Virus record (IMG/VR): IMGVR_UViG_3300047476_000982
Coordinates: 96,001-160,000 of that record
DNA: 64,000 nt
Reading direction: 5' to 3' (one strand)
Source of the DNA: a virus
The notes under the pieces are model-generated. The model was not told the DNA's origin. It did no database searches and worked only from the letters and a program-made list of their open reading frames with translations. Shown here one piece after another: positions 41,112 to 61,492 of this stretch; the stretch's first letter is position 1, and each line of letters starts with the position of its first letter. Position numbers and translations under genes: made by a program.

Positions 41112-41125
41112 ATTTGGTTATTTTA

Positions 41126-41998: not shown

Positions 41999-42879
41999 TT
42001 GTAATATTCATTTAGATATTCTATTAGGCAAACTTTCCAATTTCTCATATAATTTTTATTTAAATCATTTAGAGATTTGTTAATTAGTTTTTCTGAATAT
42101 GGTCTTGGTGCAAAATATTCATTTTTAAAATGATCACTAGATACTTTATTTATTTTTAAACCTAAATTTAAATATTCATTAATTGCTAATGCTGTTTCAT
42201 ATCTACTAGCTTCTCCATTACTAACCATATTATAAAGTCCATAAGGAAGTTCTTCTTCTATATGTTTTATAATTGAAGATGCAAAATCTTTTGTATAAGT
42301 AGGAACTCCTAATTTATCATCTACTACAAATAATTCTTTAGCTCCTGAATTTATTTGTTTCATTAACTTATTAACAAATTTTTTATCTTTATCAGGTCCT
42401 CCACCCATCATCCAACCTGCTCTAAATATCCAGTATTTTTCATAGCTTTGATTTTGTATAATTTGCTCAGTGTAGTATTTACTTTTTCCATACGCACTTA
42501 AAGGATACGGTGTATCTTCTTCTGTATAAAATTCTTTATCATTTCCAAATATACCTGCGGTACTTATAAAAACATAAGGAATATTTCTATCTTTAGCTAG
42601 ATTAAACAAATGTAAAGCAGAAATTGTATTTGTCAAATAACAATCATCTTTTTCTTTTTCACAATATTCTAAATCTACTAATGCGGCAAAATTTAAAATA
42701 ATATCAGGATTATATTTTTCTACTATCTCATTACAACTTTTTATGTCTCTTATATCACAATATACTTCTGATTCTTCTTTGTCTGTAATTATTAATTCGT
42801 AGTTATCATTTATTTTTTGTAGTGTAGTTCCTAACATCCCACTTCCTCCAAATACTAATATCTTATTATATTTTTTCAT
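41995..42879 (-). CDS. rfbD: dTDP-4-dehydrorhamnose reductase-like SDR
   Basis: GGSGMLG, NFAALVD, YGKSK, PTY, PRP. Confidence 0.85.
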   Translation of the reverse strand: MKKYNKILVFGGSGMLGTTLQKINDNYELIITDKEESEVYCDIRDIKSCNEIVEKYNPDIILNFAALVDLEYCEKEKDDCYLTNTISALHLFNLAKDRNIPYVFISTAGIFGNDKEFYTEEDTPYPLSAYGKSKYYTEQIIQNQSYEKYWIFRAGWMMGGGPDKDKKFVNKLMKQINSGAKELFVVDDKLGVPTYTKDFASSIIKHIEEELPYGLYNMVSNGEASRYETALAINEYLNLGLKINKVSSDHFKNEYFAPRPYSEKLINKSLNDLNKNYMRNWKVCLIEYLNEYYK

Positions 42880-42880
42880 T

Positions 42881-43480
42881 TTATATAGTGTTATAAAAGT
42901 TATTTTGTTTTTCTTGTCGTACTATATCTTTAGGATGAAATAAACAGTATTCTTCCATTTGTGGCAATGCTGAGTATGTTTCAAATCCATCTAAGCGTTC
43001 ATGTACTTTATTTATCCACTTAATCTTACTATTGTTTTTCCATATTCTCCATTGATAATCAGGGAAGTTAATCCATCCTTTATCATTAATATTCCAACGC
43101 CAATTGCCAATGTGTTGCGCAGTTAGTCCTTCAACTGTATTAATCCTAGGTATTAAAAGTACATCAATTGTTTGATTGTATTCTAATATATCTCCCAAGT
43201 TAGTAATTAAATGTGCGTGAGGATATTCATCTGCATCTATTTGAAAGATATAATCTTTAGTACAATACTTACTAAGATTATTTTTAAATGATGCAAAGTC
43301 TTTATTAAGAGGAAACTCTATGTAGTCTTTAGCAATTTGTCTCACCTCCTCAGTCGCATTAGAGTCTAATTGGACCACGATTTGATCTTCTTGACGTATA
43401 TTATTAGTCAATAATTCTAATAAGAATGATAATTCTCTGTGCTCGTTACAAGCGGTTATAGCATAACTAATTGATGGCAT
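42881..43480 (-). CDS. GT2-family glycosyltransferase
   Basis: ISYAITACNE, YIFQIDADE, PDYQWRI, VHERL. Confidence 0.88.
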   Translation of the reverse strand: MPSISYAITACNEHRELSFLLELLTNNIRQEDQIVVQLDSNATEEVRQIAKDYIEFPLNKDFASFKNNLSKYCTKDYIFQIDADEYPHAHLITNLGDILEYNQTIDVLLIPRINTVEGLTAQHIGNWRWNINDKGWINFPDYQWRIWKNNSKIKWINKVHERLDGFETYSALPQMEEYCLFHPKDIVRQEKQNNFYNTI

Positions 43481-43485
43481 AACAT

Positions 43486-44245
43486 TTATTTTATATCAAA
43501 GAAGCCGATATAGTCACAGGCTTCAAAATAATCTTTACCAAAACTTTTTAGTGTCTTAGAATCTGATTTGTACTTTTTTCCTTTGAACTTAGGTTGTTCT
43601 TTTTCTTCTTTAGTAAGTTTTACACTTTTAATAGAACTCCATTCCCATTCATCTTTTGAAGTACCATTAGCAAATACAGTTCCTTTACCTTCTACATTAA
43701 TTATATTAGGATACCAAACCCTTCCTTCTTCATCAACTTCTTTTATATCTTTATAAAGTTCTGGAAGTTCATTCTCATATTCTTCAAAGTTAAATTCAGC
43801 TTCACGCATTAAATCATTTGTTTGAAAACCACAAGATAGACAAACATAAGCTTTGTGAAATTCATTTACAGGCTGAGTGTAGCACGATTCAGGTGCTTTA
43901 CATTTTGGACATGCTATTAAATTATCAGTCATTGAGTTGTTGTTTAGTTGTGTAAGTAATACTTGTTCCAGGAGGTAGGTTTGTTAAATCAAATCTAGTA
44001 GTACCTGTTTGACCTAGAGTAGTGAATATTTGACTACTAGATGAAGCAAAGGATACGCTACCTGTAAGAGGCATTGTGACAGATAGCGGACTTCTTATAT
44101 AACGAGGAGTTAATTCTTCAATAGAATTATCACTTACTTCATCTAAAACTTCTTTTATTCTATCCCACTGTTCAGGTGTAGCAGTGAAGTCATTACATGC
44201 TTCTGTAAAACCTTTTAACCATATTACAAATTCACTTGATGTCAT
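43486..44245 (-). other. two hypothetical ORFs (43486-43932, zinc-ribbon CxxC..CxxC; 43925-44245)
   Basis: ORF track. Confidence 0.6.
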
Positions 44246-45549
44246 TAGTCTACTTTTTTAAGTTTAGGAAGTTCTATCTTCTTTAGTTGAGGAAGTTGCA
44301 GTCCTACTTGTTTTGGTATCTTATCTAAGTAAGTGGCAAGTAAGTTTTTCATCTCATCAAATGAAAATTTAGTTTTAGATGTATGAGATTGTCTTTTAGC
44401 AAGTTCTTCATACTTAGAATATTTTTCATAAACATTCTTTAAGTGTGTACTTGCTTGGGTAATATCTGGACTGAACCACATAGACTCTGGTAATATCATA
44501 TTTTGTACTTGTGCTGATGGATGGACGTTTTTTAATTCACCTCCAATAAAGCAGCAGAATTCTCTATCAAGAAAATCTATATGTCCTGACCAAGCTGATA
44601 CAATAATTGGCTTTTTGCTAAGAGTGAACTCTAATAAAGGTCTACCAAATCCTTCACCCTTAGTTAAATTAAACATTGCTTTTACTTTAGGATGATTATA
44701 AAGATTATTAATGTCTTTGTCATCTAATTCACCATGGAGTAAATATACGCTAGGTAAATCTCCGTCAACTGTATTTTTAATAGAGTCTATCTTTTTAAGC
44801 ATTTCATCACGATCCATTATACTAGATCCTGCACCAGATGTTTTCATTATTAATGCAGGTTTATTTTTCTTACCTTTAAATGTTTCTAGAAATGTTTTTA
44901 GCATTAAGCTAGTATTTTTTCTATCTTCACCAATTTCTCCTTGAAGCCAATGTCCTACATATAGAAAACAAAACTCTTCTTTAATTTCGTCTAATTCAAG
45001 CACTACATCTGTTTCTTCAAGATCTTCATCTTCAATGTAAAAGTATTTATTTAAATCTACTCCTTCAAATAAAACTTCAACTGGTTTTTCAAGTTTAATT
45101 ACTCCAAGAACTTGATTTTGTTGGTCTCTTTTTTCAAATGTAGATTGTTGAAATACTTTTTTAGAATGTTCTGAAGATACTAAAGTTATATTCATTCTAT
45201 TAACTCCTTCAATCCAACTAGGATCGCAAATTGTAGTTTCAATACCAGCCGTCAAACCTATATTATATTTTCCAATAGGTTGAAATTCATTTGGTACGGT
45301 AATTTGAATCCAAATGTCTGGTTGTTTTGGTAATTGAGGGATTTGAAGTATTAGGGATTCTAACCAACTATACTCTTCTTTATTGTCTTTGATATATCCC
45401 CAAGGAGTAACTCCCCAACGTTGAGATATGATTTTAATATCATACTCATCTTTTTTTAATTCATATAAAGCTTTAACAAAGTCTCTAGATCTAGCACCAT
45501 AACCTGAATATGTGTCAATAGGACAACTAATTACGCACAACTGTTTCAT
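44245..45549 (-). CDS. GT4-like glycosyltransferase
   Basis: SGYGARSR, RKN, TKGEGFGRPLLE, SGHIDF. Confidence 0.85.
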   Translation of the reverse strand: MKQLCVISCPIDTYSGYGARSRDFVKALYELKKDEYDIKIISQRWGVTPWGYIKDNKEEYSWLESLILQIPQLPKQPDIWIQITVPNEFQPIGKYNIGLTAGIETTICDPSWIEGVNRMNITLVSSEHSKKVFQQSTFEKRDQQNQVLGVIKLEKPVEVLFEGVDLNKYFYIEDEDLEETDVVLELDEIKEEFCFLYVGHWLQGEIGEDRKNTSLMLKTFLETFKGKKNKPALIMKTSGAGSSIMDRDEMLKKIDSIKNTVDGDLPSVYLLHGELDDKDINNLYNHPKVKAMFNLTKGEGFGRPLLEFTLSKKPIIVSAWSGHIDFLDREFCCFIGGELKNVHPSAQVQNMILPESMWFSPDITQASTHLKNVYEKYSKYEELAKRQSHTSKTKFSFDEMKNLLATYLDKIPKQVGLQLPQLKKIELPKLKKVD

Positions 45550-45550
45550 A

Positions 45551-46993
45551 TTAATAAACTAAAGGGTGTACAATTTTTTTTCTTTCTAATTTTTCTGTTT
45601 TAATTAATTCAAACTGTTTTTTAGGTTTGAATGTATTAATAGTTTCATTGATAGTAGATATAACATTATCGCACATATGATTTGCACTCATCATAGATTC
45701 ATTAGATAGCGCCCATTCTCTACCTGCCATACCTCTATTATTTCTTTCATCAGGAGATAAGTTATAGCAATCTTCTATTGCTTTAGCAACGTCTCTAAAA
45801 TCGCATCTATCATCATAAATGTAAGGAGTCGGTATAGATCCTACTATACTAATATTTGTTGGAAATACTGGTAAAGACCATTTACCGTGTTTTTTATATC
45901 TTCCAAAATGATTAGAACAAAATTTATCATTGAAGTCAATCCACTTACCATCTTCATCTTCAAATCTCATTTGATCTTGCATTCCTCCTGTGACGTTTGC
46001 TATGATCATTTTGCCTGCCATCATAGATTCAGTTAGAGACAATCCCCAACCTTCATTAGAAGATATTAGTGCAGTTACATCAGACATATTGTAAAGTAAA
46101 TTTATATCTTCTGCATTAAGTCTTACATCTGAAAAATATACTTTTTGATATTCTGGATTACATAGCAATTCTGTAACAGCGTTTAAATCAGTTCCATTTT
46201 CATCTGCTCTTTGAGTGTGCATTAATAAAGCACATTTACTAGCTTTTTCTTTTCCTATCTTATCACAGAAAGTAGCATACGCAGCAATTAAATCAGAAGT
46301 ACTTTTTCTTCTAATATTTCTAGCATTATAAAATACAACAAACTCAGGCTTAAAATCACCAAAAATTTCTTTTTTCTTTTTTTCTAATGCCTCATTTTGA
46401 TTCTGCATAAATTCAGTAATAGGATAGAATATCTTTTCATTAATTCCATGAGGAACATATTTAAGAATTTTCCCTTTTACTTTATCTCCTAAAACCATTT
46501 TATTTATATTAAGAGTTTGTTTTGATATTGCCATCAAAGCATCACAAGAATCATAAAATGATTTATTATACAACGGAGCAGGAAGATCATCCCAAATATT
46601 TAAATAAATCATAGGTATTTTTTTCCTAATCTCATTTTCCATTTGAAATAACCATACCCAATATCTAGGATCTGTAAAAAACATTATTGCATCAGGCCTT
46701 TCCATTTCTATAAGCTGCCTAATTAATTCAGGACTTCCATATCCATTAATAGGGTAAATAAAAACAGAAGAATCATTTATGCCCATGATCCTATTTGTGT
46801 CAGCAGATATGTCCAATTTTTTTCCTTGATCAGGATGATTAATTGCACCACCTACATTTACCCAATTAAATATATGAGAACTTCCCACAACTATTTCTCT
46901 AGCCATTGTAGAGATACCACTTGTCATTCTAATATCATCACATAGAAAAAGAATTTTTTTTCTTTGTGTTTGAGGAATATAACCATTTATCAT
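45551..46993 (-). CDS. GT4-family glycosyltransferase
   Basis: VPHGI, RNIRRK, LYNMSDV...SNEGWGLSLTESM...TGG. Confidence 0.9.
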   Translation of the reverse strand: MINGYIPQTQRKKILFLCDDIRMTSGISTMAREIVVGSSHIFNWVNVGGAINHPDQGKKLDISADTNRIMGINDSSVFIYPINGYGSPELIRQLIEMERPDAIMFFTDPRYWVWLFQMENEIRKKIPMIYLNIWDDLPAPLYNKSFYDSCDALMAISKQTLNINKMVLGDKVKGKILKYVPHGINEKIFYPITEFMQNQNEALEKKKKEIFGDFKPEFVVFYNARNIRRKSTSDLIAAYATFCDKIGKEKASKCALLMHTQRADENGTDLNAVTELLCNPEYQKVYFSDVRLNAEDINLLYNMSDVTALISSNEGWGLSLTESMMAGKMIIANVTGGMQDQMRFEDEDGKWIDFNDKFCSNHFGRYKKHGKWSLPVFPTNISIVGSIPTPYIYDDRCDFRDVAKAIEDCYNLSPDERNNRGMAGREWALSNESMMSANHMCDNVISTINETINTFKPKKQFELIKTEKLERKKIVHPLVY

Positions 46994-47278: not shown

Positions 47279-48184
47279 TTATAGAGTTTTATTACACAAG
47301 TCTGGCTTATTTGTATAGGGACAGAACTTACAACTATTGATATTCTTTGTATAAGATCTTTCTTTATTATGCTTAGCATTGGGATTGAAACATTCTCTTA
47401 TGAATTTAGAGAAGTCTTCAAATGCATCTTGCACTTTTTTCTTTCCATTAGCTGGTATAAACTCTTGAACTCTATAAGTTGGATAATCTGGATTAACAAA
47501 TACTTTTCTCTTTACTATAAAGAATTTAACATCAATCTTCTCTTCTGGAACATTCATCGCCTTTGAATAAAACCTCTTGTAAAGAAGTATTTGATTTATT
47601 TTTGTTTGATCTTTCTTTTCATAATCAGACCATCCTTTAGTTGATGTTTTTATATCATAGATAGTGTATTTATCTACAGCCTTTTCGTATATTATGAAGT
47701 CTATAGATCCATTCATAAGAACTCCAGGGATATCATCTATAACTGGAAGTAGGATAGGAATTTCTATACCTACTAAATCAGATGTCTTTCTGGAAAAGTA
47801 TTTAGATCTATTTTTCTTGAACCAATCTAAAGTAGCTTGACCATCTATTAAGAATTCTTTTAACTCTTCTTTAGTACTAAAGTGTTCATTCTTATTGTCT
47901 ACTAAACTCTGTTTGTAATTCTCTATAAGTCTATCTTCAAGTATCTTATTTAAGTCAAGTTCATCTGCAGCTTTACCAGATTTTTCATACATAAGTTTTA
48001 GATACTCTTGTATAGTCTCATGCATTGCAGTACCATAAACTAAATATATAGAAGGCTTGAATGAACTCTCTTTCTTTATATAAGTTAAATACCATTGGTA
48101 TTCGCATTGCTTATAAATAGAATATTGAGAATAGGATACGGGGGTTTGAGTAGCCCAATTGATGTTTAAATTAGGTTTGGGCAT
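47279..48184 (-). CDS. PD-(D/E)XK nuclease (RecB/Cas4-like)
   Basis: SYSQ..Y..C, GTAMHE, GSID, DIKT, Q..LY, C-terminal CxxCP...C. Confidence 0.88.
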   Translation of the reverse strand: MPKPNLNINWATQTPVSYSQYSIYKQCEYQWYLTYIKKESSFKPSIYLVYGTAMHETIQEYLKLMYEKSGKAADELDLNKILEDRLIENYKQSLVDNKNEHFSTKEELKEFLIDGQATLDWFKKNRSKYFSRKTSDLVGIEIPILLPVIDDIPGVLMNGSIDFIIYEKAVDKYTIYDIKTSTKGWSDYEKKDQTKINQILLYKRFYSKAMNVPEEKIDVKFFIVKRKVFVNPDYPTYRVQEFIPANGKKKVQDAFEDFSKFIRECFNPNAKHNKERSYTKNINSCKFCPYTNKPDLCNKTL

Positions 48185-49342: not shown

Positions 49343-49414
49343 AGCCACCAGTCAGGCTTGATCTGACACCTCTCCCGGTCGGAGTGGGAGGCTTCTACAT
49401 TGAACTATGGCGGC
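49343..49414 (-). pseudogene. degenerate tRNA (possible CCG anticodon)
   Basis: Acceptor GCCGCCA/TGGTGGC and T-stem GTCAG/CTGAC intact; T-loop ATCAAGC; mismatches in the D and anticodon stems. Confidence 0.6.
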
Positions 49415-50780: not shown

Positions 50781-51056
50781 TTATTTTTTGTTTGTTAATT
50801 TAGTTTCTAATTTATCTAATCTTGAATCCAATTGTGAATAAATGTCTTTTTCAAAATTATCAATTCTTGAATGACAATGTCTATTCTCTTCAGCTATATT
50901 CTGATAAATTTCACCTACAACTGAATCAAGTTGTCTTTGGGTATTATCTAATTGATTTTTCACTTTTATTACCTTAACGAAAGCATAAGTAGCAACTATA
51001 GCTAAAGCTATAACCACAACGAATGCTATCCCTAAAACGAATGATAGTGTTTCCAT
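50781..51056 (-). CDS. membrane-anchored coiled-coil protein flanked by 16-bp inverted repeats
   Basis: Start METLSF; one N-terminal TM segment. Confidence 0.7.
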   Translation of the reverse strand: METLSFVLGIAFVVVIALAIVATYAFVKVIKVKNQLDNTQRQLDSVVGEIYQNIAEENRHCHSRIDNFEKDIYSQLDSRLDKLETKLTNKK

Positions 51057-51095
51057 AATTTGTTTCTCCTTATATGTCAAAGAACAGTAGCCTTG

Positions 51096-51169
51096 TTGAC
51101 CCTCTCGGGCTTGAACCGAGGACCCACAGATTATGAGTCTGTTGCTCTAACCAACTGAGCTAAGGATCA
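51096..51169 (-). tRNA. tRNA-Ile2/Met(CAT)
   Basis: Anticodon arm ACAGA-CTCATAA-TCTGT; not an initiator type; Ile2 vs Met not resolved. Confidence 0.9.
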
Positions 51170-51181
51170 ATCTTGATTCAG

Positions 51182-51253
51182 AGCCCCCGCCCAGAATCGA
51201 ACTGAGTTATCGTGATTACAAGTCACGCGCATCGCCAGCAATGCTTAAGGGGC
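51182..51253 (-). tRNA. tRNA-Thr(TGT)
   Basis: Anticodon arm CGTGA-CTTGTAA-TCACG. Confidence 0.92.
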
Positions 51254-51254
51254 A

Positions 51255-51283
51255 TAAAAAAAGGAAGCCATTTCTGGCCTCCC
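51255..51283 (-). terminator. rho-independent terminator
   Basis: GGGAGGCCA-GAAA-TGGCTTCCT followed by a U-run. Confidence 0.85.
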
Positions 51284-51625
51284 TCTAAAAACATGATGGG
51301 AGTAACGATTACCCATAATCCCTGGACGGACCCCTTTTCACCCATAGTCCACAAAGATGATCAGTCTAAGTGTTAAGACTAGCTGGATTGACTACCAGCA
51401 ACGCCTGCGGAGATCGTCCGAATTATCTTCAGCGTATCCAGAGCACTTTCAGGTTGCGCATTCTACCCTCAGTGGTGGTGGTTTTAACTCATCCGTCTGT
51501 GATACCCAGCTCAATAGCTTTTCAGCTATCTACCAGTGCCTTAGCAGCTCTCAACCACTTATTCGGCCACAGTTTGATAAATGACTTAGCCTGGGACAGT
51601 GAACCAGGAGAACTGTGCTAAGTAC
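51284..51625 (-). ncRNA. candidate large structured ncRNA of unknown family
   Basis: GC-enriched, no credible ORF, many hairpins, lies between the tmRNA and a terminator. Confidence 0.6.
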
Positions 51626-51630
51626 TTTAG

Positions 51631-52019
51631 TGGAGATAGTGGGATTCGAACCCACGTCTCCGAAAGAGACAATAATACTAACGTCTCACATGCTTAGTAC
51701 TGCTTGCGCTGCACCGTAAGGGCTGACTTGTTATGGTCGGATCCACCACTTGATTTATTATATCGACATCAAGAAACTAACTCACAGTCCTTATTTAACG
51801 AGTCGATCGTGAATACTCGGAGTAGTTCTGTTCCTAGGTTACTCACCCGTAGTTGACTAGGCAGCTACTGCGTAGTCAGCACCAACGAATGCCATAGCAT
51901 CTTCGAAGGTGAATGAAGATAATTCTTCAGCGTTTATTGTTTAGTATCTTCTAAGGCAGTATACTCAAATGCCTGCATGTAGTATTACCTCTACATCCGG
52001 ATCGATACCGGTTATCCCC
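51631..52019 (-). ncRNA. ssrA: tmRNA
   Basis: 5' GGGGATA / 3' TATCTCC-A with a G3-U pair, T-arm GTGGGTTCGAATCCCAC, and tag ORF 51857-51931 (AEELSSFTFEDAMAFVGADYAVAA*) after ATAAAC. Confidence 0.95.
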
Positions 52020-52656: not shown

Positions 52657-53847
52657 TTATTGTCCCTTACTAGGGAATTTAGTCCAACCATTAATCCAAG
52701 TAGGCATAGCTAATTCAGGAATAATAACGTCAATCTCTTTATTACCTTTTCCTAAAGCTAGTGTTTTAAGTTGATCATTAGTTAGAATTGTAGTTGCTTT
52801 ACTAATAAAATTTAAAGTTGGATTAAATGCACCTACTGAATTGTTTTCGAATATAGATACACCGTCTTTTACTGCTTGAGCTGTTTCATTACTTTCTAAA
52901 CTAAGTCCACCTTTCATCCAACCGTAGATTGCACTATTCTTTACTGTGAATTGAGTAGCTCTTCTAAATCTTAAACCTAGATTGTGGTTCGCTAATGCGG
53001 TTTGATTATTAGGTCCAACTAATACCATTCCAATTAATTTAGGATGCGTAAATGGTTGTGCCAGTGAGCCCACACCATCATTATCACATTCTACACCATT
53101 ACCAGCATCACCGTTATCTACAAATAAAGGATCGCGTTTTGCAATACCATTTGTTACAGTTCCAGTATACCCAAAATCAAAGTCAAAATCATCATCTGCT
53201 GTAGCATAAGCATAAAGATTTTTTGGAGATACAGTACCACCAAAAAATTCAAATGCATCGTCATTAGCGTAAATAGTTTGTACATTTTCAATTACTGTAC
53301 CAGAACCTACACCACCTAAAGTAAGTGCATTAATTTCTGAGTTAGGTAGTGCAGCAATACCGGCATACTCAATACGAACATACTTTAGTATACCACTATT
53401 ATCTCCATCATCATTACCACCAAATGGACGGCCAATACCGCCTTCAATAGTTGGTTCAGATGAACGATTAGTTTTTGCTTTACCTAATATTACAATTCCA
53501 CCCCAGTCACCAGGAGACCTCTCGCCGGCGATTTTTCCTGAGGTAAAAATGATTGGTTTTGTTGCCGTACCTTCTGCAATAATCTTTGCACCTCTCTCAA
53601 TGCACAAAGCACCTTTTTCTGCAATGTCACTTTTGATTACAGTTCCAGGTTGAATAATTAACGTAGCGCCATCTTTAACATAAACGTATCCTTTTAAAGT
53701 CCATTCTTTATCAGAAGTAAGAGTTGTAGTTATTGTGATATTACCTGTAATTGTTTTGTCAGTAGGTACATTAATAGGCGCATCTATTTGTTCTTTTTTA
53801 CAAGCGAATAAACCGATAATTACTAAAAATAAAGTTAGCTTTTTCAT
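52657..53847 (-). CDS. beta-helix-like surface lipoprotein of the type paired with TonB receptors
   Basis: Lipobox LFAC; TLIIQPGTVIK, GDWGGIVILG, NSGILKYVRIEYAG, DDAFEFFGG. Confidence 0.8.
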   Translation of the reverse strand: MKKLTLFLVIIGLFACKKEQIDAPINVPTDKTITGNITITTTLTSDKEWTLKGYVYVKDGATLIIQPGTVIKSDIAEKGALCIERGAKIIAEGTATKPIIFTSGKIAGERSPGDWGGIVILGKAKTNRSSEPTIEGGIGRPFGGNDDGDNSGILKYVRIEYAGIAALPNSEINALTLGGVGSGTVIENVQTIYANDDAFEFFGGTVSPKNLYAYATADDDFDFDFGYTGTVTNGIAKRDPLFVDNGDAGNGVECDNDGVGSLAQPFTHPKLIGMVLVGPNNQTALANHNLGLRFRRATQFTVKNSAIYGWMKGGLSLESNETAQAVKDGVSIFENNSVGAFNPTLNFISKATTILTNDQLKTLALGKGNKEIDVIIPELAMPTWINGWTKFPSKGQ

Positions 53848-56093
53848 AAATTCAAATTAAATGTTAATGAAATTGATTGTTCGTTATTTGTTTTAATTAA
53901 ATTGCCCCTTGATTTTTGATAATAAACAGAAGGTTGGGCAAGTATATCACCTACTGCTAATTTTATTTCTCCTTTACCTACCTTACGTAAGAATACTAAA
54001 TCTATAACATCTCTAGAGTTTTCAAATATGTCATCGTATCCTTGAAAACCTACTGCTGATATTCTATCTCCAACTCTATTATAAGAAAGGTTGATTGTGT
54101 TTTTTCCTTTATGTAAATTCAATCCACCATTTACAACATAATTAGATTGCCCTTGTAATTGTCTTTTTCTACCGTTAACAACTACTTCAGATTTAACTAT
54201 AGAAGTATTAGTATAAGCATCTAACCAATTAGTTATTTTTTTACGAAACTCTATTTCAAATCCAGCAACTAATGCTTGATCTGGATTCAAGTATGTTAGT
54301 AATAGATTTGATGGTACTGATCCATCTGCTACTATTTGTTCAATTGGCTTTTTAAAGTCTTTAATAAAGAAAGCTCCTGATATGTTTTCACTTTGTTTAG
54401 GATAGTATTCTAACTTAATATCAACGTTATAAACATCTGTCTTTTGTAGATTGGGATTACCTAATAGTTGGGCATTACGTACAAAATCATAGTATGCAAA
54501 GTTAGCAACTTCTCTAAACTCAGGTCTTGCTAATGTTTTACTAGCAGATATTCTATACTTAAATCTATCCCATTCATAAGAAAAGTTTACTGAAGGTAAA
54601 AGGTCTAGATACTTTCTATTTACATTAACTCTCGTACCACTAAAGTCTGCGGTTTGTACATTAAACAAATTGTATTCTGTTCTTAAACCTGCATTTACTT
54701 TCCAACCATTTAATTCGCCTTCATATAAAGCATATGCACTTGCTAAATCAAAATCTGCAGAATACTTGTCAGTATTATTAGTAATTTCGTCTAACATATC
54801 TTCAGAAGTATATCTAAAGATTCTAGCTTTAAAAGTTCTGTATTTTTTAATATAGCTTGAACCTATTTTAAAACCACCTAATTGTTTATTCACGCCGGCA
54901 TTTAAACCATTTTCATCCATGTCACTCCAAAAACGATAAGTATCTCTCCATGCAATTGCATAAGGTTCATTAACTCCTAATGACTTAGTTATTGGATTAA
55001 TTCTATAGTCTGGTTGTTTTCTAATCATTAAATTATATCCTACATTAAAATCAAAAGTTTTAATCTTGCCATCAAATTGAGAATTGATTAATGTTTTAAC
55101 TATATTATTAGACGCATTACTTCTTACATCTTGAACATTATCGTAATTCTCGCCTATACGAGTTAAATAAGATTGTTCTACTTGATGATTAAATAAAGTT
55201 TTTAAACTATATCTATTTTTTCCTGTATAAGTTACATTAAAAAGCCCATTTAACAATTGAACTCTACTAAATGAAGTATCTCTGTATTTGTATGCTAATT
55301 CTGTTGATGATTGATAATCTTGTCTATCAATATAATTTAGTGCGTAAGTATTTCTTGCAGTTGAACTAAATAATACGTTCCACTTATTTCTTTTTAATCC
55401 AAAAGAAAGCGATCCATTTAAGTTAGGAATAGATTTAAATTCTTGAACAATTGGAGACTTTATGAGACTTGTGTAATTCTTTTTCTCTGTGTTTGTGCTT
55501 ACGCGATAAATGTAAGTGGATGGAAATTGAGTGGGGAAGGTCGTATAATCCACCAATTTGAAATTTTGGGAAGTTGAAACGGCCCCGTAATTCACTCCGA
55601 GGCCTAATGAGAAAAAATCATTAGATACATCTTTTGTAGTTACTTGAACAATTCCTCCTGCAAAATCACCAGGCAAATTTGCTGTAGCTGACTTTGCTAC
55701 TATGATATTATCTATGAGTCCTGATGGAATAATATCAAATGAAAATGCTCTACGATCAGGTTCTGTTGATGGTAAAATAGTTTTATTCAGCATAGCAGAA
55801 TTATATCTATCTGCTAAACCTCTAACTAATACAAACTTATCGTTCTGTATAGTAACACCATTAACTCTTTTAAGTGCATCACCTACACTACGATCAGGAG
55901 TTTTCTTTATAAACTCAACAGAAAGCCCATCAGATATAACAGAACTATTTCTGATGCTATTAATCACTGCAATGTTAGATTCTTTCTTTTGAACAGAACG
56001 AATCGTAATATTATCTAGTTTTTGATTGAATAAAGTGTCTTGGGAAAAGGATAAAACTGGAAATAGTAAAAATAGTAACGCTTTTAATTTCAT
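53844..56093 (-). CDS. TonB-dependent receptor
   Basis: Plug motifs (DALKRVNGVT, VRGLADRYN, GDFAGG), GNPNL, C-terminal barrel strand ISLTFNLNL; start trimmed to MKLKALLF. Confidence 0.93.
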   Translation of the reverse strand: MKLKALLFLLFPVLSFSQDTLFNQKLDNITIRSVQKKESNIAVINSIRNSSVISDGLSVEFIKKTPDRSVGDALKRVNGVTIQNDKFVLVRGLADRYNSAMLNKTILPSTEPDRRAFSFDIIPSGLIDNIIVAKSATANLPGDFAGGIVQVTTKDVSNDFFSLGLGVNYGAVSTSQNFKLVDYTTFPTQFPSTYIYRVSTNTEKKNYTSLIKSPIVQEFKSIPNLNGSLSFGLKRNKWNVLFSSTARNTYALNYIDRQDYQSSTELAYKYRDTSFSRVQLLNGLFNVTYTGKNRYSLKTLFNHQVEQSYLTRIGENYDNVQDVRSNASNNIVKTLINSQFDGKIKTFDFNVGYNLMIRKQPDYRINPITKSLGVNEPYAIAWRDTYRFWSDMDENGLNAGVNKQLGGFKIGSSYIKKYRTFKARIFRYTSEDMLDEITNNTDKYSADFDLASAYALYEGELNGWKVNAGLRTEYNLFNVQTADFSGTRVNVNRKYLDLLPSVNFSYEWDRFKYRISASKTLARPEFREVANFAYYDFVRNAQLLGNPNLQKTDVYNVDIKLEYYPKQSENISGAFFIKDFKKPIEQIVADGSVPSNLLLTYLNPDQALVAGFEIEFRKKITNWLDAYTNTSIVKSEVVVNGRKRQLQGQSNYVVNGGLNLHKGKNTINLSYNRVGDRISAVGFQGYDDIFENSRDVIDLVFLRKVGKGEIKLAVGDILAQPSVYYQKSRGNLIKTNNEQSISLTFNLNL

Positions 56094-56167
56094 ATTGTGT
56101 GTTGTCTTTAAATAGATATTTTGAGCTAGTTGCCCAGGCAATATCTTTGTATTATCAAATTATTAAA

Positions 56168-57295
56168 TTAATTAGAAGAATGAGATAGATTTATGTCTCC
56201 TAAAATACAGTACTTAATGTTTTGAGTAACATTAGAAGTCACAACATTAATTGTAAATGAGGCTACTGGGTTAATTGTAGAATAATTGGATCTGTTTATT
56301 AAATCATAATTAGCTGAAGTAAACCATAATACTTGATTTATAGGTCTTAATCCACTAAGGTGGGCTGCTACTAGGTAAGCATCACCTAAATCTAATATAC
56401 CATTTCTATTCACATCAGCTGCTTTCCACTGTTTAGTTCCAGTCATTACTAGACCTTGAGCCGTATTAGATGGTATGTTTATATTTTTAACTTCACCCCA
56501 AATTAAATCAAAGTCAGTTGATGTTATACCTTGAATTGTTAATGAAGGATATATTTTGTAAGTAGTATTATTAGCTGGTACTGTAAATGAGTATGTTCCA
56601 TTTGTAGCTACAGTTTTAGTTTCAACTAAATTTTCACTCGTTCCAACTATTCTATATAAACTAAGTGTAGGATATGAAATTAAAGTTGGTACTGACACTA
56701 TTCCACTTATTGTAGCTAAAGGTACTACTATACCTAATTCAGTAGGTTGTAATGAATAAGCTGATTGTGAAGGTCTTTTCCATACAACTGCCATACCATC
56801 ACCCCCACCATACTCTTGCATTCGGGCGATGAATGTATATGATGTTCCTGCAACTAAACTAACAGAACCATATTGATAGCCACTCATACCGTGACCTCCA
56901 TAAAATGAAGTTACCAAAGCACCATTTATAAGCAAATCAGAACCGTCATCAGAATTTATTCCAAATGTATAGATTCCTGTTTCTGTAGGAGTAAATACTC
57001 CACTCACTTCAACAGCATAAAAATCACCATTATTGGGAATACTAGCACCTGCATTTGATAGTGTTGTCCACGTAGTAAAATTTAAACACGTAGTTGCATT
57101 CATAGTACCACTCCACCATAATGTAGTGTTTGAGTATGATGTATTAGTTAAAATATCCATCTGAGCTTTATTATTGGCAAAATTGGGATATTGTGAAGTA
57201 TTACCATTACCAGCATGTGTACGAAACACTTTTACATTTAGTGTTTGTCCAAATGTTAAAATAGGAAATAATAATATAACTAAGACTCTGATCAT
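56168..57295 (-). CDS. secreted PA14-domain protein with a dockerin-like Ca-binding module
   Basis: Signal peptide; FGINSDDGSDL and EYGGGD (PA14); ADVNRNGILDLGDAY and GDIN. Confidence 0.8.
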   Translation of the reverse strand: MIRVLVILLFPILTFGQTLNVKVFRTHAGNGNTSQYPNFANNKAQMDILTNTSYSNTTLWWSGTMNATTCLNFTTWTTLSNAGASIPNNGDFYAVEVSGVFTPTETGIYTFGINSDDGSDLLINGALVTSFYGGHGMSGYQYGSVSLVAGTSYTFIARMQEYGGGDGMAVVWKRPSQSAYSLQPTELGIVVPLATISGIVSVPTLISYPTLSLYRIVGTSENLVETKTVATNGTYSFTVPANNTTYKIYPSLTIQGITSTDFDLIWGEVKNINIPSNTAQGLVMTGTKQWKAADVNRNGILDLGDAYLVAAHLSGLRPINQVLWFTSANYDLINRSNYSTINPVASFTINVVTSNVTQNIKYCILGDINLSHSSN

Positions 57296-59596: not shown

Positions 59597-61492
59597 TTAA
59601 AGTATTAAAAAGGGTTTAGTAATAATTTTCTTTTGATCCGTCATTGATAAATAGTAGTTACCTTGTCTTAAGTTAGTAGCATCTATTTTATAATTTGCTG
59701 TTAATGCATATTCATTGCTTGATAGTTTACCTAGATCTTTAACTGGGCGTCCAGTTACATCAAATATCATAGCATTCATATTCATGTTATTTCTAGGGAA
59801 AGTAACTACTAATTCAAACATACCGTTATTTGGATTAGGACGAATTGATGTAACTACCTCTTCATCGCTACCATTATAATATCCAGGTATTCTTCTACTT
59901 GATAATGCTACTATATCAGACTGAAGCACGATATTAAATCTATCTCCATTTTGATCACCTGCATCCATTAATTTACGTACTTTAATATAGCTAGTAATAT
60001 CATTGTTACCTATAGGAGAAAATTTAAGTTTAAACGGCATATAATTGCCAGTTATATATCCTACGTTTTGATTATTCATTCCACCAAAACGAATAGTTCC
60101 AGTTTGTGCATCATGGTTTACATATTGTAACCACGGACCTTGAATATTAGATACAATCTCTTCAAATTTTACTTTAGTTCTATCATAAGTCATTTCAAAT
60201 TGAAGTGATGCATTTTGAAGTCCATTCGTACTAACATTCATTGGAACATATAGTGGTTCTCCTACATTAGCAAATGTGTTAGGTATGTTAACATTTAAGT
60301 TGCCTATAGTATTATAAGCCACTATTTCTTGGTTGTTAGCATCAAATACAGGTGATGAGTGGCTTCTATTTACGTCACCTACAATTGCATATTTAAGATT
60401 AACTACAAGATTAGCTGTACCTATACTGTCATAAACAAAGTCCATTCTATCTAAGAATGCAGGCCAAGATGTCCATTGATTTTCACCTAATACTAAATTA
60501 TCATATTCAGTAGCAGTAAATACTTTAATTAATCCTGCCGTATCGATTTGTTTTAAACCAGCTACAGAAGCATAAATACCATAAGCGTCTCCACCATCTA
60601 ATCCAGCACTCTTATTAATATCAGCTTGTAAGTAACTCAATCCTGATTTTAAGTATTGTCTTGTGTATACTTGATTTACATCTGTATTAACAAATTCATC
60701 ATACACTTTAGCACCATCAGTTATTGTTACAGCGTTATCTCTAATTGTAGTTAATTCAGCTTTAGGGAATAATAATTGTATTTTATATTTTGTATTTTGT
60801 TCAATATTATCTAATGTGTAAGTACCATCAGTAGCAATAGCAACACTTGAAGCAACGGTACCATCAACTGCATCTATTGCTAATACTGTAGGTTTAGAAG
60901 TCATATTAGCAGCCAACCATACTTTACCTGAAATGGTTAAGTTACCTTTTAAGAATACGGACATGCTCTTATTAGTAAGATTAGCTACATTATCTCCTAT
61001 TGTATTACCATCTTGAGTGAATAATCTAGCCCAGTTAATTGTAATAGAATCAGATACGAAGTTTGCTTCTACTGAGTTAATTTTATACTTGTTGTGTATA
61101 ATATAAGCTTGAGATCCAATTTGATTACCACTAGCTAAGATTAAATAGTTACGAGCTACAGTCCAAGCAGTGTCAGATACATAAGTATAATTACCTGCGG
61201 TATAGCCTGAGTATTTAGAATTATCAAATTGCTTATAGTCAATATAAGGAGTTTGAGTTGCAAATGCTACATCAACAGTAGTTGCAATGTGAGTTAAAAG
61301 TCTTTTCTTATATTGAAAGTCAACTTGAAATGTACGAACATCTTTACTAGCAATAGGTTGATAATACCAGGCAACATCTAAAGTGTCACCTCTTTTAACA
61401 GTTGCGAGCTGTTGAAAGTGTCCGATTGAAGGTTGTTGGGCAAAGGAAGCATAACTAATTAATACTGCAAGCAGCGTTAATAGTTTTTTCAT
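59597..61492 (-). CDS. cohesin + dockerin-like protein with a T9SS type-A C-terminal sorting domain
   Basis: Two cohesin-like segments (FQVDFQY; LQFEMTYD); ADINKSAGLDGGDAY and GDVN; IRPNP...IFDVTGR...LRQGNYYL...KPFLIL. Confidence 0.8.
   Translation of the reverse strand: MKKLLTLLAVLISYASFAQQPSIGHFQQLATVKRGDTLDVAWYYQPIASKDVRTFQVDFQYKKRLLTHIATTVDVAFATQTPYIDYKQFDNSKYSGYTAGNYTYVSDTAWTVARNYLILASGNQIGSQAYIIHNKYKINSVEANFVSDSITINWARLFTQDGNTIGDNVANLTNKSMSVFLKGNLTISGKVWLAANMTSKPTVLAIDAVDGTVASSVAIATDGTYTLDNIEQNTKYKIQLLFPKAELTTIRDNAVTITDGAKVYDEFVNTDVNQVYTRQYLKSGLSYLQADINKSAGLDGGDAYGIYASVAGLKQIDTAGLIKVFTATEYDNLVLGENQWTSWPAFLDRMDFVYDSIGTANLVVNLKYAIVGDVNRSHSSPVFDANNQEIVAYNTIGNLNVNIPNTFANVGEPLYVPMNVSTNGLQNASLQFEMTYDRTKVKFEEIVSNIQGPWLQYVNHDAQTGTIRFGGMNNQNVGYITGNYMPFKLKFSPIGNNDITSYIKVRKLMDAGDQNGDRFNIVLQSDIVALSSRRIPGYYNGSDEEVVTSIRPNPNNGMFELVVTFPRNNMNMNAMIFDVTGRPVKDLGKLSSNEYALTANYKIDATNLRQGNYYLSMTDQKKIITKPFLIL

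What the first reader, a model, noticed from the sequence alone, without database searches (positions are those of the whole stretch)
51255..51625. Unassigned ~340-nt highly structured RNA directly downstream of the tmRNA
Seen on the minus strand: ACTTAG/CTAAGT enclosing CCTGG/CCAGG with a possible pseudoknot CACAGTT/AACTGTG; GTGGTT/AACCAC; GATAGCT-GAAA-AGCTATT; ACGC/GCGT; GCTGG/CCAGC; AGTCT/AGACT; GGAC/GTCC; ATGGG/CCCAT; then a strong terminator. It is GC-rich with no credible ORF. I found no RNase P, SRP, group I or hammerhead core. Inference: a novel large ncRNA or ribozyme released by tmRNA processing.
Basis: partly seen in the sequence, partly recalled or inferred. Interest (0 to 1): 0.7.

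Follow-up and report, generated by a model that had tools for sequence, protein, structure and literature searches.

The report
Enlarged manA-like RNA beside phage tmRNA
The GC-rich gap between this uncultured phage's tmRNA and tRNA genes encodes a real, intricately folded RNA of about 290 bases; it is an enlarged, uncatalogued relative of the known manA RNA, not a wholly new class or a shown ribozyme.

Summary
Window 51,289-51,575 (minus strand) encodes a conserved structured RNA. I collected 57 distinct versions from phage and metagenome contigs. On these, 93% of cells in 64 proposed base pairs form standard pairs, against 78% in shuffles, and 50 pairs show compensatory double changes.

Three are contradicted by covariation. 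The 5' hairpin is an optional add-on.

No Rfam family passes its threshold. The two ends, however, match the manA RNA (RF01745):
- the same closing helix;
- the same 5' module, with a 15-base identity to cyanophage manA in some members;
- the same 3' hairpin with an 11-base loop.

My models find manA reciprocally, though weakly. The centre differs: a long-range helix encloses a five-way junction.

The gene sits in tRNA/tmRNA clusters, sometimes 7-9 bases from tRNAs on both sides. It is followed by a tRNA or its own terminator, not by a protein gene, so it is a free-standing RNA rather than a leader.

One hairpin loop is a 6-base palindrome in 56 of 57 members, in two compensating versions. This suggests that copies pair with each other, as manA does in a 2026 cryo-EM preprint. 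Function and processing are untested.

This scan has already reached the same reading for look-alike stretches in other genomes.

The parts
51630..52019 (-). Phage tmRNA, tag AEELSSFTFEDAMAFVGADYAVAA. Its 3' end reads CUA where CCA is expected. It is the upstream neighbour of the RNA and is probably co-transcribed with it.
   Evidence: ARAGORN; Rfam RF00023, 69.5 bits, full length.
51584..51623 (-). Optional 5' hairpin P0 (ACUUAG...CUAAGU enclosing CCUGG/CCAGG). Not part of the conserved core.
   Evidence: Among the loci whose upstream flank I read, it is present with the same letters only in the window, L081 and L104, and absent in L001 and the other members read. Its fold is not better than shuffles (z -1.08).
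51570..51575 (-). P1 5' strand (AAACUG). It pairs with 51289-51295 (CA-U-GUUU) and closes the whole RNA.
   Evidence: P1 covaries across subgroups, for example 10-bp AAAAGUAAUG/CAUUACUUUU in L124, GUUUUAACAG/CUGUUAAAAC in L207 and AUAACUG/CAGUUAU in L165. Own flanks score 5.28, against 4.31 +- 0.12 when shuffled. P1 is weak in the window itself.
51538..51571 (-). 5' module shared with manA: UGUG, P2 (GCC/GGC), internal loop GAAUAA / UAA, and P2a hairpin (GUGG/CUGC) with the near-invariant loop UUGAGAG (52 of 57; UUAAGAG in 5).
   Evidence: All 8 pairs covary and 99-100% of cells are paired. Model R1 of this module hits all 6 canonical manA RNAs at their equivalent module.
51506..51536 (-). P3 long hairpin with a GNRA tetraloop: outer CUGGU/GCUGG, inner GAUAGCU/AGCUAUU, loop GAAA.
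   Evidence: 10 of 12 pairs have changes on both sides. The loop is GAAA in 52, GCAA in 4 and GUAA in 1 of 57 members.
51491..51503 (-). 5' strands of the long-range helix PX: AUC (outer, tentative) and GACGGAU (inner). They pair with 51318-51331.
   Evidence: Inner helix: 6 of 7 pairs covary and 95.7% of cells are paired. Outer helix: only 58% paired in one register, because the register differs between subgroups.
51479..51490 (-). Conserved junction strand GAGUUAAAACCA. Its ACC could pair with GGU of 51332-51344; this is untestable because both are invariant.
   Evidence: 42 of 57 members are identical and the rest differ at 1-3 positions. RNAalifold proposed ACC/GGU.
51438..51478 (-). P6' (CCA/UGG) enclosing the P6 hairpin (GCGC/GUGC) with an A-rich loop. 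This is the most variable arm and is replaced by other hairpins in some subgroups.
   Evidence: P6' is 96.5% paired and all 3 pairs covary. P6 is 85% paired. Variant arms are seen in L106, L165, L196, L204 and L207.
51401..51435 (-). P7 (ACGC/GCGU) enclosing a small variable hairpin and the conserved strands YGAAG and YGAUCUCYGCAG.
   Evidence: P7 is 94.7% paired and 3 of 4 pairs covary. Its loop content is listed.
51382..51399 (-). P8 hairpin GCUGG/CCAGC with an 8-base loop UAGUCAAU.
   Evidence: 100% paired and 3 of 5 pairs covary.
51345..51381 (-). P9 (UAGUC/GACUA) and P10 (CACUUAGA/UCUUUGUG) hairpin with the 7-base loop CUGAUCA (51358-51364), which contains the palindrome UGAUCA.
   Evidence: P9 is 100% paired. 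P10 is 87% paired and 6 of 8 pairs covary. The loop is CUGAUCA in 53 members and [C/U]UAGCUA (palindrome UAGCUA) in 3, with 1 exception.
51332..51344 (-). Conserved junction strand UGGGUGAAAAGGG.
   Evidence: Identical in 53 of 57 members.
51318..51331 (-). 3' strands of PX: GUCCGUC, spacer CAGG, then GAU.
51296..51316 (-). P5 hairpin (AUGGG/CCCAU) with the 11-base loop UAAUCGUUACU. This is the 3' module shared with manA.
   Evidence: 100% paired. Rfam manA partial hit of 10.2 bits here. R2 and R3 align it to manA's last hairpin.
51257..51286 (-). Intrinsic terminator: a G+C-rich hairpin followed by a U run (51256-51262) that ends 2 bases before tRNA-Thr.
   Evidence: -17.4 kcal/mol, z -4.41. 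The stem covaries among relatives, and 42 of 76 loci have such a terminator.
51095..51253 (-). tRNA-Thr (51181-51253) and tRNA-Met (51095-51169). Together with the RNA they form a cassette that is precisely absent in a close relative.
   Evidence: In L004 the tmRNA 3' end abuts the sequence that here follows tRNA-Met.

Best explanation
Window 51,289-51,575 (minus strand) is the gene of a free-standing structured RNA of about 290 nt, plus an optional 5' hairpin and a terminator.

What it is. It is an enlarged, uncatalogued relative of the manA RNA. It shares manA's closing helix P1, the 5' module (GUG, a 3-bp helix, GAAUAA, a hairpin, UAA, the helix's return strand), a GNRA hairpin, a late hairpin with a 7-base loop, and the 3' hairpin with an 11-base loop of the form UA..CAG.A... 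The centre is different. In place of manA's three-hairpin junction, a long-range helix encloses a five-way junction with two near-invariant single strands, GAGUUAAAACCA and UGGGUGAAAAGGG.

How it most likely works.
- Shown: it is conserved as a fold. It lies on the same strand as tRNA/tmRNA genes and is usually pressed against them. It is followed by a tRNA or its own terminator, not by a protein gene.
- Inferred: it is transcribed with the tmRNA and tRNAs, or from its own promoter in some relatives. Its ends are cut by the enzymes that trim tRNA-like neighbours (RNase Z or RNase E at the tmRNA 3' end, RNase P at a downstream tRNA) or are set by its terminator.
- Inferred: it acts in trans as a stable RNA particle. 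By analogy with manA, whose loop-loop contacts between copies build closed oligomers in a 2026 cryo-EM preprint, copies of this RNA bind one another. The palindromic P10 loop (UGAUCA) would pair with itself, possibly helped by P10-loop/P5-loop and ACC/GGU contacts.

What the assembly does for the phage is unknown.
For: Real structured RNA. 57 distinct members; 93.0% of cells paired against 78.1% in shuffles; 50 of 64 pairs with double changes against 35.2 (0 of 500 shuffles); slid controls give 10-18. On the uncorrected MAFFT alignment of 20 members: 90.7% against 76.6%, and 36 pairs against 24.1. P1 covaries.

Relation to manA.
- Rfam manA hits P5 at 10.2 bits.
- In a complete 174-kb phage that carries a homologue, the only manA candidate genome-wide is that homologue's P5 (10.9 bits, E 0.23).
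- Model R1, built from the 5' module, hits 6 of 6 canonical cyanophage manA RNAs exactly at their equivalent module (12-18 bits; 6 of the top 8 hits in 173 kb).
- The full model R3 aligns end to end with 4 of 6 manA RNAs. They rank 1, 2, 3 and 5 with filters off (12.1-14.3 bits).
- Members L186 and L141 share the 15-mer GTGACTGAATAAACT and the 9-mer GGTTAAGGT with manA of P-RSM4 and P-TIM68.

Free-standing gene.
- 37 of 75 loci have a tRNA or tmRNA no more than 110 nt upstream on the same strand.
- 38 of 76 have one no more than 60 nt downstream, 42 of 76 have a terminator, and 71 of 76 have one or the other.
- In the L117 group, tRNA-Thr lies 9 nt upstream and tRNA-Gly 7 nt downstream. In L124, tRNA-Gly lies 9 nt upstream and tRNA-Asn 8 nt downstream.

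Self-association.
- The P10 loop is CUGAUCA in 53 members and [C/U]UAGCUA in 3. Both contain 6-base palindromes, which differ by two compensating swaps.
- In manA, L8 (CUGUA) is complementary to L9 (UACAG) in all six canonical manA sequences read. The preprint reports that L5-L7' and L8-L9' are kissing loops between copies. Identifying its L8/L9 with these two loops, and L5/L7 with the GGUGGU/ACCA loops, is my mapping onto the Rfam consensus, because its figures could not be read.
- Here CUGAU of the P10 loop is complementary to (A/G)UCAG of the P5 loop in many members.
Against: - The Rfam manA model scores only about 10 bits, against a cut-off of 55.2. My reciprocal hits are weak (12-18 bits), and one noise hit reached 12.4 bits in 53 kb. 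The homology therefore rests on the position-specific agreement of several modules, not on any single score.
- The centre of the molecule has a different topology from manA. The hairpin with the 7-base loop lies inside the long-range helix, not next to P5.
- Self-association is inferred only. The palindrome has just two versions, probably one evolutionary switch. One member (L141) lacks it.
- In the window itself the P10/P5 loop match is only 4 bp including a G-U. In the UAGCUA subgroup that match is lost.
- No expression data could be obtained.
- The single-sequence folding energy is unremarkable.
Confidence: 0.6

Rival explanations
1. It is a monomeric trans-acting RNA that binds a protein or another RNA. 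Examples would be a sponge or decoy for a host factor, a defence protein, tRNA or the ribosome. The loop palindrome would then be incidental, or a site read by a dimeric protein.
For: The two long, near-invariant single strands (GAGUUAAAACCA, UGGGUGAAAAGGG) and the conserved YGAUCUCYGCAG look like recognition surfaces. The gene sits among translation-related RNA genes. Nothing here shows oligomers directly.
Against: No protein gene is consistently linked to it; the constant neighbours are tRNAs and tmRNA. The relative manA is reported to form RNA-only oligomers through the equivalent loops. The loop stays palindromic through a four-letter change.
Confidence: 0.17
2. It is an independent new RNA class that shares only recurrent building blocks with manA (a GAAUAA internal-loop module, a GNRA hairpin, a terminal hairpin), by convergence and not by descent.
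For: The Rfam manA score is far below the cut-off. The central topology differs. Reciprocal model hits are weak and overlap the noise range.
Against: The shared modules occur in the same order, at the same ends, closed by the same kind of P1 helix. Some members share 15- and 9-base identical stretches with manA. All six manA RNAs are hit at the right module by R1, and R3 aligns end to end with four of them.
Confidence: 0.12
3. It is a cis-acting sensor (riboswitch-like attenuator) that controls read-through of its terminator into the downstream tRNA genes.
For: manA is filed in Rfam as cis-regulatory (PMC2864571). In the window, L001 and L096 a terminator lies 2-5 bases before a tRNA.
Against: One large subgroup has no terminator, only 16-21 bases of spacer before the tRNA. 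Other members have a terminator followed by nothing relevant. P1 and the terminator stem do not overlap, so no alternative pairing is evident. Members flanked by tRNAs on both sides at 7-9 nt leave no room for an expression platform.
Confidence: 0.07
4. It is a ribozyme: either self-cleaving to free itself from the tmRNA/tRNA transcript, or acting on tRNA-like substrates.
For: It is large and highly conserved, with invariant single strands, and it is always next to RNAs that need processing.
Against: No match to RNase P, group I/II, hammerhead, twister or any other catalytic family at E up to 10. Its ends can be explained by host tRNA-processing enzymes and a terminator. The relative manA has no reported catalysis.
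Confidence: 0.04

Closest known systems
manA RNA motif (Rfam RF01745; Weinberg et al. 2010, PMC2864571; cryo-EM preprint bioRxiv 10.64898/2026.07.01.735769)
   Same: - Phage-borne.
- A closing helix P1 joins the 5' and 3' ends.
- The 5' module is the same: GUG, a 3-bp helix, GAAUAA, a hairpin, UAA, the return strand.
- Both have a GNRA hairpin and a late hairpin with a 7-base loop beginning (N)CUG.
- The final hairpin has an 11-base loop of the form UA..CAG.A.. that is complementary to that 7-base loop.
- Both have ACCA and GGUG elements.

   Different: - About 290 nt against about 190 nt.
- It scores 10 bits against the family model (cut-off 55.2).
- manA's three-hairpin junction is replaced by one long GNRA hairpin plus a long-range helix around a five-way junction.
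- The ACCA and GGUG elements are junction strands here, not hairpin loops.
- The 7-base loop is palindromic (UGAUCA or UAGCUA) here and not palindromic in manA (UACUGUA).
- It lies in tRNA/tmRNA clusters of phages with Bacteroidota-type genes. The canonical copies read here lie in intergenic spacers between protein genes of marine cyanophages, and the family is also reported in gamma-proteobacteria.
GOLLD and ROOL RNAs
   Same: Large, ornate RNAs of unknown function, often carried by phages or prophages and often next to tRNA genes. They are reported to form RNA-only multimeric assemblies.
   Different: They are much larger (about 580-800 nt). No sequence or structure match to either family was found here at E up to 10.
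Phage T4 stable RNAs C and D (species 1 and 2 RNAs of the T4 tRNA gene cluster; from my own knowledge)
   Same: Stable non-coding RNAs of unknown function, encoded inside a phage tRNA gene cluster and matured together with the tRNAs.
   Different: They are about 120-140 nt with tRNA-like framing. No similarity to this RNA was seen. I did not compare them directly.

Membership tests
manA RNA (RF01745) | Scores at or above the Rfam gathering threshold (55.2 bits) with the family covariance model | tested here: not met
   10.2 bits, model positions 124-182 only. There was no hit at the gathering threshold. A homologue in a 174-kb phage scores 10.9 bits. A true member (P-SSM2) scores 181.6 bits.
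manA RNA (RF01745) | A closing helix (P1) pairs the segment just 5' of the GUG...GAAUAA module with the segment just 3' of the last hairpin | tested here: met
   Covarying P1 of 4-10 bp in all subgroups. Own flanks score 5.28 against 4.31 +- 0.12 when shuffled. The manA consensus is shown.
manA RNA (RF01745) | 5' module: GUG, a short helix, internal loop UGAAUAA / UAA, and an enclosed hairpin | tested here: met
   Model R1 (47 nt, built only from this family) hits 6 of 6 canonical manA RNAs at that module, at 12-18 bits. There are 15-mer and 9-mer identities with manA in L186 and L141. The enclosed hairpin's loop differs: UUGAGAG here, AUAUA-like in manA.
manA RNA (RF01745) | A helix enclosing three hairpins with loops GGUGGUG (L5), GNRA (L6) and UAACCA (L7) | tested here: not met
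   Only the GNRA hairpin is present as a hairpin (P3). ACCA and GGUG occur in junction strands and in the reverse order. The enclosing helix surrounds a five-way junction instead.
manA RNA (RF01745) | A long penultimate hairpin with a 7-base loop (L8), immediately followed by the last hairpin, whose loop (L9) is complementary to it | tested here: inconclusive
   A hairpin with a 7-base loop exists (P9/P10). Its CUGAU is complementary to (A/G)UCAG of the P5 loop in many members (4 bp in the window). However, it lies inside the long-range helix, about 30 nt before P5, and the complementarity is lost in the UAGCUA subgroup.
manA RNA (RF01745) | A terminal hairpin with 5 bp (GGG/CCC-rich) and an 11-base loop of the form UA..CAG.A.. 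| tested here: met
   The Rfam partial hit aligns it. R2 hits this hairpin in 3 of 6 manA RNAs. Loop census is; the window's own loop is UAAUCGUUACU.
manA RNA (RF01745) | Location in putative 5' UTRs of protein genes (cis-regulatory annotation) | tested here: not met
   It is followed by a tRNA/tmRNA or a terminator in 71 of 76 loci, and flanked by tRNAs on both sides in some. The canonical copies examined lie between protein genes.
manA RNA (RF01745) | Formation of RNA-only closed oligomers through kissing loops | not testable with these tools
   Reported for manA in the preprint. Here there is only the conserved palindromic loop.
Known large RNAs and ribozymes (RNase P RNA, group I/II introns, hammerhead and other self-cleavers, GOLLD, ROOL, HEARO, OLE, raiA, 6S, SRP) | A match to the family covariance model | tested here: not met
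   No hit to any of them at E up to 10 on 1.2 kb or on 306 nt.

The most novel reading that the evidence does not exclude
Phages of more than one lineage encode a family of self-assembling RNAs, comprising manA and enlarged forms such as this one. In this form the RNA is made as a free-standing product of the tRNA/tmRNA operon and is cut out by tRNA-processing enzymes. It then builds a dimer-based RNA particle through a palindromic kissing loop. The particle would serve infection, for example by sequestering or scaffolding a component of translation or of host defence. This would mean that manA-type RNAs are not riboswitches at all.
Probability: 0.3. Interest if true: 0.75.

Novelty: new variant of a known kind. 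Interest (0 to 1): 0.55.

Why it matters
manA has been filed for 15 years as a possible riboswitch, and a 2026 preprint reports that it builds RNA-only cages in vitro. This enlarged relative sits in a tRNA/tmRNA cluster and is followed by a tRNA or a terminator, not by a protein gene. In this branch of the family it is therefore not a leader sequence.

That gives an independent genomic argument that the family works as free RNA particles. It also offers a second architecture, with a palindromic loop, for testing how such RNAs assemble.

It extends the family from marine cyanophages to large phages that carry Bacteroidota-type genes. It also provides a ready alignment of 57 members for a new Rfam entry.

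Tried and rejected
- Rfam at the gathering threshold and at E up to 10 gave nothing but the weak manA fragment.
- blastn of the RNA against 50,697 phage records gave no match.
- No whole genome is held for the window.
- RNase P conserved regions and group I P/Q/R/S elements: I compared these by eye against sequences recalled from memory. Some resemblances (GGGUGAAAAGGG, GAUCUCCGCAG) did not survive the covariation-based structure, and no Rfam model matched.
- The single-sequence MFE z-score is -1.15, which is uninformative.
- A pattern for the 5' module alone brought 17 extra loci without the RNA. All are coding or otherwise unrelated sequence, so there is no other architecture with this exact module.
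- Two exact patterns over 185,579 prokaryote species genomes gave 0 and 9 matches. None of the 9 is the RNA.
- Neither were the 19 metagenome loci from the pattern scan that matched no family profile.
- Pairing of the P2a loop (UUG) with the P8 loop (CAA): the UUAAGAG variants carry no compensating change, so I dropped it.
- Pairing of the P10 loop with the GAUC of the P7 loop is not kept in the UAGCUA subgroup.
- The R3 hit at L114:2012-2159 (12.4 bits) has no manA or other meaningful Rfam match. I took it as noise, and it sets the noise level for R3.
- The motif TATTTATATAYA is not enriched in the window (10 matches against 8.8 expected).
- The simple terminator scan missed the RNA's terminator, so I folded it directly.
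- The paper on 10,006 viral candidate RNAs (PMC10690425) describes motifs of 29-151 nt only. I could not tell whether fragments of this RNA are among them.
Full report
**1. What is there**

The window is a low-GC (about 0.26-0.38) stretch of a large uncultured phage. Nearly all genes are on the minus strand.

ARAGORN and Rfam agree on a tmRNA at 51630-52019 (minus), followed by tRNA-Thr (51181-51253) and tRNA-Met (51095-51169). The flagged stretch is the 375-nt gap between the tmRNA and tRNA-Thr.

- No Rfam family reaches its threshold there, and at E up to 10 on 1.2 kb nothing relevant appears.
- The minimum-free-energy fold of the single sequence is no better than shuffles (z -1.15).
- Comparative evidence is therefore what matters.

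**2. Relatives**

A neighbouring 396-aa protein has 130 relatives in IMG/VR contigs of up to 326 kb. Only the closest of these loci carry the RNA.

Exact-pattern scans with conserved words of the RNA then brought in many more loci from IMG/VR and from metagenomes.

- A profile search finds 95 hits.
- After removing duplicates there are 57 distinct full-length versions.
- Two such patterns over one genome from each of 185,579 prokaryote species gave no member.
- So far, then, this is an RNA of phage and metagenome contigs only.

**3. Structure**

RNAalifold on 14 sequences already showed several covarying helices, including a long-range one. I refined the model by hand and counted pairs with subgroup-specific registers. 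This gave 1229 of 1296 cells (95%) as standard pairs, with about 40 of 65 positions showing double compensatory changes.

Tool counts:

| Alignment | Cells paired | Shuffled | Pairs with double change | Shuffled | Slid controls |
|---|---|---|---|---|---|
| Uncorrected MAFFT, 20 sequences | 90.7% | 76.6% | 36 | 24.1 | 4-11 |
| Model-based, 57 sequences | 93.0% | 78.1% | 50 of 64 | 35.2 | 10-18 |

No shuffle out of 500 reached the observed values. The second alignment is fitted to the structure, so it leans towards it; the first is not fitted.

The fold, 5' to 3' (window coordinates are given under parts):
- P1, which closes the molecule;
- UGUG;
- P2 with the internal loop GAAUAA/UAA and the hairpin P2a (loop UUGAGAG);
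- a long GNRA hairpin, P3;
- a long-range helix PX, which encloses a five-way junction made of the strand GAGUUAAAACCA, P6'/P6, P7 (with a small variable hairpin and the conserved YGAUCUCYGCAG), P8, P9/P10 (7-base loop CUGAUCA) and the strand UGGGUGAAAAGGG;
- the hairpin P5 with an 11-base loop;
- the P1 return strand.

P1 is weak in the window (UG/CA plus AAAC/GUUU). It is 7-10 bp and clearly covarying in diverged subgroups. The outer three pairs of PX are tentative.

**4.

- Confirmed: GATAGCT-GAAA-AGCTATT, ACGC/GCGT, GCTGG/CCAGC, ATGGG/CCCAT and the terminator (-17.4 kcal/mol, z -4.4).
- Not supported: GTGGTT/AACCAC, AGTCT/AGACT and GGAC/GTCC. Their strands have other, covarying partners.
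- The 5' hairpin (51584-51623) is present, with the same letters, in only a few members (window, L081, L104). It is missing in L001-type members, whose core starts 11-13 nt after the tmRNA. It is an optional extension, and its proposed pseudoknot cannot be tested.

**5. What it is related to**

A look-up of earlier notes of this scan gave the lead that look-alike stretches in other genomes had been read as enlarged manA-like RNAs. I tested this myself.

a. Rfam's manA model gives a partial hit of 10.2 bits on P5. In a complete 174-kb phage carrying a homologue, the only manA candidate in the genome is that homologue's P5 (10.9 bits, E 0.23).

b. I fetched six canonical manA RNAs from cyanophages. 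P-SSM2 scores 181.6 bits.

c. A 47-nt model built only from this family's 5' module hits all six at their equivalent module (12-18 bits). These are six of the top eight hits in 173 kb.

d. A model of the 3' part hits the last hairpin of three of the six.

e. The full 302-nt model aligns end to end with four of the six.
   - They rank 1, 2, 3 and 5 with filters off (12.1-14.3 bits).
   - One unrelated hit reaches 12.4 bits, so these scores alone are marginal.
   - Across about 1 Mb of loci that lack the RNA, the best noise hit is 9.6 bits.

f. At the sequence level, members L186 and L141 share GTGACTGAATAAACT and GGTTAAGGT with manA of P-RSM4 and P-TIM68. The P5 loops of both families read UA..CAG.A.. 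within GG(G)/CC(C) stems.

g. Both families close the molecule with a P1 that abuts these two modules.

Taken together this is good evidence that the two ends are homologous. The centre is not the same. manA's helix around three hairpins is absent, and the hairpin with the 7-base loop lies inside the long-range helix. A second copy of the 5' module inside the RNA was not found. I therefore file it as a new variant of a known kind, not as a member of RF01745 as that family is defined.

**6. Context**

| Feature, same strand, in 83 non-redundant loci | Count |
|---|---|
| tRNA/tmRNA no more than 110 nt upstream | 37 of 75 |
| tRNA/tmRNA no more than 60 nt downstream | 38 of 76 |
| Terminator downstream | 42 of 76 |
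| tRNA/tmRNA or terminator downstream | 71 of 76 |

- In the L117 group the RNA lies 9 nt after tRNA-Thr and 7 nt before tRNA-Gly. In L124 it lies 9 nt after tRNA-Gly and 8 nt before tRNA-Asn. In L146 and L149 a tmRNA follows after 19 nt.
- Many members carry TATATA[CT]ACAAA[AC] directly before the core. This is a possible promoter, and it is untested.
- A close relative, L004, whose neighbouring protein is 96% identical, lacks exactly the RNA, its terminator, tRNA-Thr and tRNA-Met. Its tmRNA 3' end joins the sequence that here follows tRNA-Met. The RNA therefore travels as part of a tRNA-type cassette.
- The canonical manA copies examined lie between protein genes.
- Window genes for a T9SS sorting domain and a TonB-dependent-receptor-like protein point to a Bacteroidota host.

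**7. How it may work**

Shown: a conserved fold; a free-standing position in RNA-gene clusters; no downstream protein gene.

Inferred: excision by the enzymes that trim the neighbouring tRNA-like RNAs. The window's tmRNA ends in CUA, not CCA. By textbook knowledge, this implies an endonucleolytic cut after the discriminator base followed by CCA addition.

Inferred by analogy: self-association.
- The preprint reports that manA oligomers are held by kissing loops between copies, L5-L7' and L8-L9'.
- Its figures could not be read, so I mapped those loop numbers onto the Rfam consensus. L8-L9' then corresponds to CUGUA with UACAG (the two loops are complementary in all six sequences). L5-L7' then corresponds to the GGUGGU and ACCA loops.
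- Here the equivalent 7-base loop is CUGAUCA in 53 members and [C/U]UAGCUA in 3.
- Both hold a 6-base palindrome, and the two differ by two compensating swaps (G-C to A-U, and A-U to G-C).
- This is what a self-kissing loop predicts, but it is probably a single evolutionary event, and L141 is an exception.
- CUGAU is also complementary to (A/G)UCAG in the P5 loop of many members. In the window this is only 4 bp.

The biological role is unknown.

**8. Rivals**

- A monomeric binder of a protein or RNA cannot be excluded.
- Convergence with manA is unlikely, given the ordered, position-specific matches.
- An attenuator of the downstream tRNAs is contradicted by members that lack a terminator or are squeezed between tRNAs.
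- A ribozyme has no support.

**9. Limits**

- Public collections could be searched only with exact patterns, so diversity is under-sampled. The metagenome pattern also required the CUGAUCA loop.
- E-values of the home-made models are rough.
- No read data could be examined.
- Statements about GOLLD/ROOL and about T4 RNAs C and D rest on my own knowledge.

Noticed in passing
window 51630-52019 (-): The phage tmRNA encodes an unusually long 24-residue tag (AEELSSFTFEDAMAFVGADYAVAA). In this window it ends in CUA where relatives (L001, L081) encode CCA.
   Followed up: partly
L004:10160-10560 compared with window 50950-51700: A relative whose neighbouring protein is 96% identical lacks exactly the RNA, its terminator, tRNA-Thr and tRNA-Met. 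The junction lies at the 3' ends of the tmRNA and of tRNA-Met. This suggests gain or loss of the cassette by recombination between tRNA-like 3' ends.
   Followed up: partly
window 53844-56141 (-), 56168-57295 (-), 59597-61492 (-): The phage encodes three proteins of interest: a TonB-dependent-receptor-like protein (Plug plus outer-membrane beta-barrel), a PA14-domain protein, and a protein with a type IX secretion C-terminal sorting domain. The last points to a Bacteroidota host. An outer-membrane-receptor-like gene in a phage is itself unusual.
   Followed up: no
window 39921-46993 (-): A cluster of sugar-modifying genes: two glycosyltransferase-like proteins and an aminotransferase by PHROGs. 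An exonuclease-like gene lies at 47279-48184.
   Followed up: no
window 49343-49414 (-): Rfam calls an eighth tRNA-like element (35 bits) that ARAGORN does not report.
   Followed up: no
L104, L107, L197, L162, L139, L152, L129 and others, directly 5' of the RNA core: The motif TATATA[CT]ACAAA[AC] immediately precedes the core in many relatives that are not directly behind a tmRNA. It may be a promoter of the RNA gene. The related word TATTTATATAYA is not enriched in the window.
   Followed up: partly
L141:1326-1645: One family member has the P10 hairpin loop replaced by an insertion of about 31 nt, and so lacks the palindromic loop.
   Followed up: no
L106, L196, L204, L165, L186, L160, L207 (P6 arm): In several subgroups the P6 arm is replaced by a different hairpin, some of which have a GGCC loop. 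This arm is the variable periphery of the RNA.
   Followed up: no
L081:2302-4365 (-): In one relative the tmRNA and this RNA lie about 1 kb upstream of an array of 21 tRNA genes. ARAGORN does not call that contig's tmRNA, although the sequence is clearly present.
   Followed up: no
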